DNA from: Bythopirellula sp. | Lineage (GTDB): Bacteria > Planctomycetota > Planctomycetia > Pirellulales > Lacipirellulaceae | DNA: 64,000 nt | Direction of reading: 5' to 3' | NCBI GenBank assembly: GCA_965216565.1 | Contig: OZ244170.1 | Location: forward strand, 5,056,001 to 5,120,000 | In this document: positions 39,001 through 42,000 of the stretch, piece after piece | How the letters are laid out: each line of letters starts with the position of its first letter | How positions within the stretch are numbered: the stretch's first letter is position 1 | Position numbers: made by a program

Positions 39001-42000
39001 CAAACTCCGGCTCGCCTGGAAGCGGCCCATTCTTCGAAGCGAGGACAACCGGATACTTGAAATGCCAAAAGTGGCCTTTCACGGGCTCGTGGAAAACTTC
39101 GTCGTCGCTCACCGCGGTCTGCAGATAGGTATCCCAATTCACAAGCCGTTTGCCCCGATAGATCTTGCCATCGGCAAACAACTTGAAGAACGTCTCGCGG
39201 ACGGCCCGTGCGCACTGCTCATCGAGCGTAAAGCGGGTCCGCTCCCAATCGCAGCTACAGCCGAGCTGTTCGAGTTGACCTAGAATGCGTTTCTCGTATT
39301 GGTCTTTCCACTCCCAGATGCGATCGACGAGTCCCTCACGCCCCAGATCGTGCCGCGAAATGCCTTCGTCCTCCAGCAACCGCCGCTCGACAACCGCTTG
39401 CGTGGCAATGCCCGCATGGTCCGTCCCCGGCATCCACAGCACGTTGAAGTTTTGCATGCGTTTCATGCGACACAAGATATCTTGCAGCGTGTTATTGAGT
39501 GCATGGCCCAGGTGCAAAGCACCGGTAACATTCGGCGGCGGGATGACAATCGTGAACGGCTCACGCGGATCGTCGGCTTCAGCGTGGAAGTAACCTCGGT
39601 CTTTCCACACGGAGTACCACTTCGACTGAGCGGCCGCGTGGTCGTATTGCGAAGGTAGATCTTTGAGATTGGACATCGTGTCGGGAGACATTGTTTTATT
39701 CTCTCGCAAAGGCGCAGAGACGCTAAGAATTCTTTGAGGTAAGTTCTGAAATGGACGGACTACTGCAATATTTCGTAAAGTACTTCGTTTTTGCTTGATG
39801 ATATCAAACAGATCGAGTTCATAAGAGGCTGCGGATTCTTTTAACTTTGCGGCTCTGCGCCTTAGCGAGAGACACTTCCTTTCTGAATCCCTATCCCGAA
39901 TCCTTACACAATTTATACTCGATACTATCGACCAACGCCTGCCAACTAGCTTCGATGACGTTTTCGTGGACGCCAACGGTGCCCCAAGTATCGGTGTCGT
40001 CCTTGCTTTCGATGACGACGCGTACGCTGGCTGCGGTGGCGGCATCGGAGTTGATCACTCGCACTTTGTAGTCGACCAGGTGCATCTCGTTCAAGCTGGG
40101 GAAGTGCCCGTTGAGGGCTTTTCGCAGCGCGGCATCCAGTGCGTTGACCGGCCCGTCGCCTTCGGCGACTTCGTGCCGAACTTGCTCGTCGATGAGTAAT
40201 TTGACCGTGGCCTCGGTCACCGGCTCGCCCCCTCGACTCACGACGCTCGTTTGATACTGCACCAATTCGAAGTGCGGAACAAAGGTGCCAGCTGCGCGTT
40301 GGATCAGCAAATCGAACGAACCCTCTGCGGCCTCGAACTGATAGCCACGATTTTCCAGATCGACCACCTGTGCCAGGATCTGGTTCATTAGCTTCTTGTC
40401 TTCCTGGAGGTTTCGCTTCGTCGCCAGGGCAATGATATTCGAGCGTCCGGAAAGCTCACTCACCAGCACACGGCGTGCATTGCCGACGGCGGCGGGATCG
40501 ATATGCTCGTAGCTAGAGGCCGCCTTCGCCACAGCGTGCACGTGCATTCCACCCTTGTGAGCAAAAGCACTAGGGCCGACAAAGGGCTGGTTCACTCGGA
40601 AATGCATGTTGGCGATTTCATACACATAACGGGAAAGTTCCGTGAGGTGTTCCACGCCTTTGCCGTCGAATAGTTCGAAGCCCTCTCGCTTCAATGTGAG
40701 ATTTGCCGCGACGGAAACTAAATCCGCGTTGCCGCACCGTTCGCCGATGCCGTTGATGGTCCCCTGCACATGCGTGGCACCCGCGTCGATGGAAGCCAGC
40801 GTGTTGGCTACCGCCAAATCGCAATCGTTGTGCGTGTGGATGCCGAGCGGCTTGTCGACCTTGGTGGCGGCATCCTTGGTGATTGCGGCGATCTCTTCGG
40901 GAAGCGTGCCGCCATTAGTATCGCACATCACAATGGTCGAGCAGCCCGCCTCGGCCGCGGCCTGAATTGTTTGGGCAGCGTACTCTGGATTGGCTTTCCA
41001 GCCGTCGAAGAAGTGCTCTGCATCGTAAATGACTTCACGACCTTCGCCCACAAGGTAAGCGACCGTATCGCGGATCATCGCCAGGTTTTCTTCTAGCGAA
41101 ACGCCCAGTACTTTCTCAGCATGGAAGTCGGAAGTCTTCCCAACAATCGTGATCACACCGGCTTGGGCTTTGAGGAGTGCTTGCATTCCAGGATCGTCGG
41201 CTGGAGCTGTTCCCTTACGACGCGTCATGCCAAACGCACAGACGCGGCTGTTTTTTAGCGGTTTCTCAGCGAGACGTTGAAAGAACTCGGCATCTTTGGG
41301 GTTTGAAAGCGGATAGCCCCCCTCCACAAAGTCGAAACCGATTTCGTCCAACCGACGCGCGATTAGCAACTTGTCTTCCAGCGAGAAGTTGACACCTTCG
41401 CCCTGGGCTCCGTCGCGGAGCGTCGTGTCGTAGATTTGAATATGCATGGGTGGTGGGTAGGGGTTAGAAATAAGCGGCTTGAGGCTAGCAACCGGAAGGC
41501 CTATTAGAAATCTGGATAAGACACCCAAGCCCCTGGATCCTAGTCTCTACAAAAAAACCCTGAAGCCTCAGTTGGCCTCAGGGTTGTGGTGAATTTCGGT
41601 TGTCTGCCGAACCAACCCTAAGGCCGTCTTCCAATAACGATCGCAATAATATCGACGCAAATGGCGTCGGGTATCAATGGGCGAATCGTGGAAACCATGG
41701 GTGGCTCGGGGTTGTACGGGATCGGATTGTATTGGTTGCAGCAATATTGCTCGAAAAGACCCTAGTTTAGCTTGCCTAACGCAGTCGGGCAACATGCCCT
41801 CGTGGACCTGGATTCGGCTCGATTCCCGGCAAGATTTAGCCCATCCTGGCGAATAACCTCTAGGAATCGAGCGAATCATTAGCCCGTAGGTCCCGCCACA
41901 TCTGCGTGAGCTACGTTGTAGAAGGTTATTCTGCGCCAAAGGTTCGCAACCGTCCCGGCAATTTGCAATCAGCCGCGGACTTCAAACGTATATCTGGGGA

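What a model noticed while it worked through the whole genome (the two positions that open the first line are those of the whole stretch)
41447..41698. Leu attenuator of leuA and Ile attenuator of citramalate synthase cimA
Uncalled leader ORFs with terminators precede cimA (g04130; MVSTIRPLIPDAICVDIIAIVIGRRP, Ile-rich) and leuA (g00207, 276304-276514; MPLESLLSLLLLELSRLGT, Leu-rich). Isoleucine control by attenuation sits on citramalate synthase, marking the citramalate route as the regulated Ile pathway, while ilvB and thrS have no conserved leader.
Evidence so far: Leaders and GGGTTTTTTT terminators in the sequence. leuA: >=6 Leu in 14 codons in 21 of 29 Pirellulales loci vs 1 of 43 controls. 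cimA: >=4 Ile in 11 of 23 loci, mostly ending in R-P, vs 0 of 24 controls.
(Added by a program. Inside this text positions count along the whole contig: contig position 5,056,001 is position 1 of the stretch shown here. "Call 12" and the like, gene names such as g00115 and contig names such as C1 are that model's own, and its searches are not shown. The text may have been shortened before it was handed on; [...] marks where a part breaks off. The agent that wrote the report below was given it as the finding of a first reader that could run no searches.)

Follow-up and report, generated by a model that had tools for sequence, protein, structure and literature searches.

The report
Isoleucine/valine and leucine leader-peptide attenuators
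Tiny upstream genes rich in isoleucine (plus valine) or leucine codons, each wired to a switchable transcription stop signal, most likely let this planctomycete and many relatives switch on the first enzymes of isoleucine and leucine synthesis only when those amino acids run short; this is a textbook mechanism, but in a phylum and on a gene pair (cimA-valS) where I found no published report of it.

Summary
Both leaders are real and look like classical ribosome-sensed transcription attenuators: a sigma-70-type promoter, a short ORF whose regulatory codons end 4-6 codons before the stop, an antiterminator strand spanning the stop codon, and an intrinsic terminator. Uniform scan: leuA 30 of 30 loci with >=6 Leu; cimA 29 of 50 with >=3 Ile (36 of 50 with weaker or displaced copies); ilvB 0 of 30; thrS 0 of 30. 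Leaders favour rare codons. Threonine deaminase was found in 3 of 61 family genomes. A third, aromatic leader precedes DAHP synthase. No expression data and no paper found in nine searches. This scan noted the cimA and DAHP leaders before on other planctomycete DNA.

The parts
41764..41792 (-). sigma-70-type promoter-like site (-35 at 41792-41787, 17-nt spacer, -10 at 41769-41764)
   Evidence: Same arrangement upstream of 36 of 38 family cimA leaders, 2.0 expected from shuffles. Start site not mapped.
41618..41698 (-). cimA leader ORF, 26 aa, 7 Ile (5 ATT, 1 ATC, 1 ATA) and 3 Val codons; last Ile 4 codons before the TAG
   Evidence: conserved Ile-rich ORF in 29 of 50 family loci. Translation inferred.
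41614..41625 (-). segment 2, antiterminator 5' strand (last two codons, stop codon and the G-run after it)
   Evidence: Predicted to pair with segment 3; 87% of cells paired in 22 family rows but no compensatory change there; cognate beats non-cognate pairing across the phylum.
41595..41611 (-). small inner hairpin inside the antiterminator
   Evidence: Predicted in this sequence; not in the family consensus structure.
41574..41585 (-). segment 3, shared by antiterminator and terminator
41551..41567 (-). segment 4 (terminator 3' arm) and U-tract
   Evidence: Terminator-like site; 92% of cells paired, 4 pairs with double changes, 0 of 500 shuffles as high.
39891..41447 (-). cimA, citramalate synthase with a C-terminal LeuA-type allosteric domain
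   Evidence: TIGR00977 over cut-off; PF00682, PF22617, PF08502. Activity inferred from family membership.
36527..39691 (-). valS, valine-tRNA ligase, 200 nt behind cimA, probably co-transcribed
   Evidence: TIGR00422 over cut-off; no terminator-like or promoter-like site in the gap; linkage in 27 of 29 family loci.

Best explanation
Both are ribosome-mediated transcription attenuators. RNA polymerase starts about 60 nt before the leader and a ribosome follows. With charged tRNA-Ile (and tRNA-Val) plentiful, the ribosome reaches the leader stop codon and covers segment 2, so segment 3 pairs with 4 and transcription stops about 100 nt before cimA. When Ile-tRNA (or Val-tRNA) is short, the ribosome stalls 4-6 codons earlier, segment 2 is free, it captures segment 3 before segment 4 is made, and cimA (and probably valS) is transcribed. 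The leuA device works the same way with Leu codons, many of them the rare CUA. Shown from sequence: ORFs, codon enrichment, promoter-like site, terminator covariation, two mutually exclusive folds of similar energy. Inferred: translation of the leader, termination, the response to starvation, co-transcription of valS, Val sensing, CimA activity.
For: Cognate-specific codon enrichment with cross-controls: leuA 30/30 >=6 Leu and 0/30 >=3 Ile; cimA 29/50 >=3 Ile and 0/50 >=6 Leu; ilvB 0/30 for both. Rare codons: ATT 102 of 145 Ile codons vs 17% in cimA coding DNA; CTA 70 of 197 Leu codons vs 1% in leuA coding DNA; CUA is the control codon of the enterobacterial leu attenuator (PMC1183508, passages). 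Spacing of last Ile to stop is 4-6 codons in 34 of 39 rows (L084 included). Modelled stall: segment 3 pairs upstream by >=6 bp in 38/38 cimA and 29/30 leuA leaders, falling to 8/38 and 6/30 with the ribosome at the stop; antiterminator about -20 kcal/mol, terminator -19 to -21; beats 95% of shuffles in 30/38 and 23/30. Cognate segment 2/3 duplex -13.6 vs -10.5+-0.46 in permutations, 0 of 10000, 31 leaders across the phylum. Promoter-like site 36/38. Class breadth: 16 of 29 cimA and 18 of 30 leuA loci.
Against: No expression, termination or translation data. Within the family the antiterminator shows no compensatory change and scores no better than column shuffles. At equilibrium the terminator still wins in 30/38 and 27/30 leaders with the ribosome stalled, so the switch must be kinetic. 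No conserved 1:2 helix (1/38, 6/30). No cimA leader found in 14 of 50 family genomes, nor within 1 kb in three named cultured relatives (L267, L296, L300). No Shine-Dalgarno before the leader (cimA lacks one too). Similar-looking Streptomyces ilvB and leuA leaders did not behave as classical attenuators when mutated (PMC1262725, passages). The Val-valS link rests on five independent contrasts, p 0.125-0.25.
Confidence: 0.88

Rival explanations
1. Same attenuator but Ile-only: Val codons are incidental and valS has its own promoter.
For: This leader has 7 Ile and 3 Val; many family leaders with valS behind have 0-1 Val in the last 16 codons (15 of 59 overall); tree test not significant.
Against: 0 of 15 leaders without valS have >=2 Val vs 44 of 59 with valS; no contrast goes the other way; four leaders in one clade are Val-dominated with 0-1 Ile and have valS behind (L210, L217, L221, L305); no promoter-like or terminator-like site in the gap.
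Confidence: 0.35
2. An RNA-binding protein recognises AUU/CUA repeats and controls antitermination (TRAP- or BglG-like; recalled), the ORF being incidental.
For: Ile codons are mostly ATT and often in tandem.
Against: Codons vary synonymously, stay in one frame with a stop placed in segment 2, and change identity with the gene behind: Leu for leuA, Ile/Val for cimA, Phe/Tyr/Trp for DAHP synthase.
Confidence: 0.04
3. Nascent-peptide arrest like TnaC (ends in R-P-stop; recalled), sensing free amino acid in the ribosome tunnel.
For: R-P ends 18 of 38 family leaders.
Against: Others end RS, QP, GA, VA, WP, RL, WT; these codons keep pairing with segment 3, often by G-U; leuA leaders with the same RNA strand end in other residues; peptide sequence is otherwise not conserved.
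Confidence: 0.04
4. A constitutive terminator of an upstream transcript with a chance small ORF.
For: Short ORFs precede 466 of 776 terminator-like sites in the genome; one such false positive (L084) entered my first set.
Against: The upstream gene here is divergent; promoter, ORF, codon bias and pairing are conserved together.
Confidence: 0.02

Closest known systems
E. coli/Salmonella leuL-leuABCD attenuator (CUA control codons; PMC1183508 passages; PMC5314783 passages)
   Same: Leu-rich leader before leuA, CUA preference, competing antiterminator and intrinsic terminator.
   Different: Different phylum; no conserved 1:2 helix found; no Rfam match at the window leader (the leuA leader itself was not scanned against Rfam).
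E. coli ilvL (ilvGMEDA), ivbL (ilvBN) and thrL multivalent attenuators (recalled)
   Same: Ile/Val codons in a leader controlling branched-chain amino acid synthesis.
   Different: Here the device sits on citramalate synthase, the threonine-independent entry step, and probably valS; ilvB has none.
E. coli pheM-pheST attenuator (recalled)
   Same: Leader-peptide attenuation over an aminoacyl-tRNA synthetase gene.
   Different: Here the synthetase (valS) is the second gene behind a biosynthetic gene for another amino acid.
Actinobacterial ilvB leaders and LEU element (PMC1262725, passages)
   Same: Short ORFs with Ile/Val/Leu runs before ilvB and leuA.
   Different: LEU is a pseudoknot/Shine-Dalgarno device; here leuA has an ordinary terminator and antiterminator.
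T-box control of leuA-family genes in Bacillota (PMC12452182, one table row)
   Same: tRNA-charging sensed upstream of LeuA/CimA-family genes.
   Different: No ribosome or leader ORF; no T-box match here.

Membership tests
Classical ribosome-mediated transcription attenuator | Short leader ORF enriched in codons for the pathway's end product | tested here: met
Classical ribosome-mediated transcription attenuator | Intrinsic terminator (3:4 + U-tract) between leader and first gene | tested here: met
   (covariation, 0 of 500 shuffles).
Classical ribosome-mediated transcription attenuator | Antiterminator (2:3) mutually exclusive with the terminator | tested here: met
   Folding and shuffles, cognate vs non-cognate test; no compensatory change inside the family.
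Classical ribosome-mediated transcription attenuator | Geometry: stalled ribosome frees segment 2, ribosome at stop covers it | tested here: met
   Model with 13 nt covered; spacing 4-6 codons.
Classical ribosome-mediated transcription attenuator | 1:2 pause/anti-antiterminator hairpin | tested here: not met
   Above 95% of shuffles in 1 of 38 cimA and 6 of 30 leuA leaders; a 1:2-type fold is predicted for this one sequence only. Lowers likeness to the four-segment trp layout, not the working principle.
Classical ribosome-mediated transcription attenuator | Promoter upstream of the leader | tested here: met
   36 of 38 cimA, 13 of 30 leuA with a strict pattern, about 2 expected.
Classical ribosome-mediated transcription attenuator | Leader is translated; termination depends on charged tRNA | not testable with these tools
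   No RNA holder listed.
Citramalate synthase (TIGR00977) | Score over the curated cut-off | tested here: met
   667.6 vs 450 bits; below all LeuA cut-offs.
Citramalate synthase (TIGR00977) | Pyruvate + acetyl-CoA condensation, Ile inhibition | not testable with these tools
   Inferred from family.
Any Rfam family (leader, T-box, riboswitch) | Covariance-model match | tested here: not met
   Only two microRNA matches far below gathering score in 41300-42050.
TnaC-like arrest peptide | Conserved C-terminal residues independent of RNA pairing | tested here: not met

The most novel reading that the evidence does not exclude
Planctomycetes carry an old, undescribed attenuator chassis shared by the paralogues leuA and cimA, whose sensing codons are retuned to what the operon holds: Leu for leuA, Ile plus Val for cimA-valS, Ile alone where valS has moved away (five separate times on the CimA tree), and almost Val alone in one clade, where it would act mainly as a valyl-tRNA synthetase attenuator. 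Lacking a 1:2 helix, its default without translation would be 'on', the reverse of the trp paradigm.
Probability: 0.45. Interest if true: 0.62.

Novelty: new member of a known kind. Interest (0 to 1): 0.46.

Why it matters
It extends leader-peptide attenuation to Planctomycetota, gives independent regulatory evidence that TIGR00977-type enzymes serve isoleucine synthesis in bacteria that mostly lack threonine deaminase, supplies unannotated small ORFs and a new RNA family, and offers a natural series in which a sensor's codons appear to follow operon content. The mechanism itself is textbook, so a specialist would find it useful more than surprising.

Tried and rejected
Rfam: no match. NCBIfam on the leader peptide: none. 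Covariation of the antiterminator inside the family: none, the strands are too conserved; a phylum-wide MAFFT alignment was out of register, so pairs were not counted on it and a cognate vs non-cognate duplex test was used instead. R-P arrest motif: rejected. Conserved 1:2 helix: not found. Concerted evolution of the leuA and cimA devices: not supported, in family f3 the cimA arm has drifted while the leuA arm keeps the common form. Link between leader loss and gain of threonine deaminase: not seen, the three genomes with the enzyme keep the leader. Other model hits in the own genome at 859320, 32135, 66462, 5135961 and the Ala-rich hit at 4315731 are ordinary end-of-gene terminators. L084 and L193 are ends of an upstream gene, dropped. 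Expression: no RNA holder listed; three guessed RNA runs laid nothing, no evidence either way. Literature: nine searches gave no report of these leaders; PMC4833913 (first third of the text and passages; supplements listed, not read) treats planctomycete leader genes only by distance statistics, and its external leader-gene tables could list these ORFs; the 2010 genome-wide attenuation survey (PMID 20198868) is not held, and from memory it did not report Planctomycetes.

Full report
Observation. The 26-codon ORF is at window 41698-41618 on the minus strand, followed by a 12-pair stem (41585-41556) and a run of T, about 105 nt before cimA. The gene passes the citramalate synthase model TIGR00977 and stays below all LeuA cut-offs. 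The leuA leader and terminator are at G000:C1 276514-276386. In a genome-wide scan of 776 terminator-like sites, 466 with a short ORF in front, these two are the top Leu- and top Ile-enriched leaders. CimA identity places the genome beside records named Bythopirellula and Lacipirellulaceae (82-85%).

Conservation and controls. cimA was matched in 59 of 61 family genomes; I examined the upstream DNA of 50. One pipeline (hairpin plus T-run, short ORF ending within 75 nt, last 16 codons, up to 1 kb upstream) gave: cimA 29 of 50 with >=3 Ile, 23 with >=4, 0 with >=6 Leu; leuA 30 of 30 (of 56 matches) with >=6 Leu, 0 with >=3 Ile; ilvB 0 of 30 (of 40 matches) for either; thrS 0 of 30 with >=4 Thr, two of them with under 200 nt upstream. 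By eye seven more cimA loci belong: three with only two Ile in the last 16 codons (L025, L078, L085), one with a weak U-tract (L083), and three where one to three large genes, a TPR protein in the one scanned, lie between attenuator and cimA, 2-6 kb away (G010, G022, G055). That makes 36 of 50; in 14 none was found, also by a genome-wide model search and in 3-7 kb of flank for seven of them. Outside the family, 16 of 29 class loci and 7 of 31 loci of other classes have >=3 Ile (one had only 48 nt upstream), 42 of 76 named loci do (four short ones dropped, partly the same DNA as earlier loci), and 18 of 30 class leuA loci have >=5 Leu. Kin are not independent, so these are descriptions, not tests.

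Anatomy. A TTG-N16/18-TAnnnT promoter pattern precedes 36 of 38 cimA leaders and 13 of 30 leuA leaders, about 2 expected; here it is at 41792-41764. Ile codons are ATT in 102 of 145 cases against 17% in cimA coding DNA; Leu codons are CTA in 70 of 197 against 1% in leuA (the Ile count includes L084). The terminator is supported by covariation (92% paired, four pairs with double changes, 0 of 500 shuffles). Its 5' arm is complementary to the strand spanning the leader stop: 87% paired but with no compensatory change in 22 family rows. With a ribosome modelled on the last regulatory codon this antiterminator forms in 38 of 38 cimA and 29 of 30 leuA leaders, at about the energy of the terminator, and mostly not with the ribosome at the stop (8 and 6); at equilibrium the terminator still wins in most, so order of synthesis must decide. 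Across 31 leaders from the phylum, own partners pair better than swapped ones (-13.6 vs -10.5 kcal/mol, 0 of 10000 permutations), so the two strands change together. A 1:2 helix is not conserved. The R-P end (18 of 38) coincides with the pairing strand; R-S and other ends keep pairing, so it is read as an RNA constraint.

Pathway context. None of the six PALP proteins of this single-contig genome is a threonine deaminase and the family model found one in 3 of 61 genomes, while ringing in 10 of 14 controls. So 2-oxobutyrate most likely comes from CimA (established pathway knowledge), which makes cimA the natural control point. valS lies within 1.5 kb behind cimA in 27 of 29 family loci with enough flank, here after a 200-nt gap without terminator-like or promoter-like sites. 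Leaders with valS behind carry on average 2.6 Val in the last 16 codons (44 of 59 with >=2), those without 0.5 (0 of 15); seven of unknown status were dropped, and three 'without' calls rest on 1.3-1.5 kb only. On a CimA tree valS linkage changes five times; of five independent pairs three or four go the expected way, none against, p 0.125-0.25. This is suggestive, not established. The lead to test Val came from earlier scan note e1-1523229.

Shared chassis. A covariance model built from 22 cimA leaders alone ranks the leuA leader second in the genome (E 5.4e-9) and hits all 30 family leuA leaders. Among 274 strong terminators of the genome only these two have the same 10-nt arm within two mismatches. 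Common descent is likely, since the genes are paralogues, but convergence is not excluded: ordinary terminators here have a similar style and the antiterminator strand is bound to mirror the arm.

A third attenuator. The same model led to a Phe/Tyr/Trp-rich leader with terminator before DAHP synthase (G000:C1 about 2929900-2930054), present with >=5 aromatic codons in 27 of 30 family loci (one had 33 nt upstream) and 0 of 110 control loci.

Comparison and novelty. It works like the enterobacterial leu and ilv attenuators and meets every sequence-testable defining feature except the 1:2 helix. Leu leaders before leuA are known in E. coli and streptococci (PMC5314783, passages). Nine searches of the open library found no report for cimA or for Planctomycetota; subscription papers, including the 2010 survey, could not be read. 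This scan has noted the cimA and DAHP leaders in other planctomycete genomes, and Ile leaders before cimA in other lineages; those notes are unchecked and are not counted as support.

Verdict. Real, very probably a classical attenuator pair (0.88), a new member of a known kind; interest 0.46. The Val-valS tuning and the shared chassis are the most novel parts and remain to be shown.

Noticed in passing
G000:C1:2929900-2930054 (+), locus L113/L148: Phe/Tyr/Trp-rich leader with terminator before DAHP synthase (ferredoxin-like regulatory domain); 27 of 30 family loci. Noted before by this scan in other genomes.
   Followed up: partly
L006, L010, L018, L022 (about 450-550 nt between terminator and cimA): A short gene, by eye a four-helix-bundle protein (name recalled, not scanned), is inserted between attenuator and cimA, so it would fall under Ile control.
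   Followed up: no
L178, L179, L180, L181: One to three large genes (TPR repeats in the one scanned) sit between the intact attenuator and cimA, 2-6 kb apart.
   Followed up: partly
L210, L217, L221, L305: Leaders before cimA-valS with 4-6 Val and 0-1 Ile in the last 16 codons, one clade on the CimA tree: possibly mainly valine sensors.
   Followed up: partly
L004 (G027), about 80 nt before cimA: Promoter-like site and a hairpin with T-run remain but no Ile leader: a possibly decayed attenuator.
   Followed up: no
L003, L005, L269: Same-clade leaders in which the stop lies before the antiterminator strand instead of inside it, with 6 Val in the last 16 codons.
   Followed up: partly
window 42009-43595 (+): SPFH/Band 7 protein divergent from the leader; its terminator is at about 43614-43647.
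   Followed up: no
window 41703-41693 and 41452-41442 (-): Leader and cimA start codons share the same C-rich context and lack a Shine-Dalgarno sequence.
   Followed up: no
thrS loci L362-L372: In 11 of 30 family genomes the thrS model matches only from position about 253 although the open frame is over 700 aa, hinting at a divergent or inserted N-terminal half.
   Followed up: no
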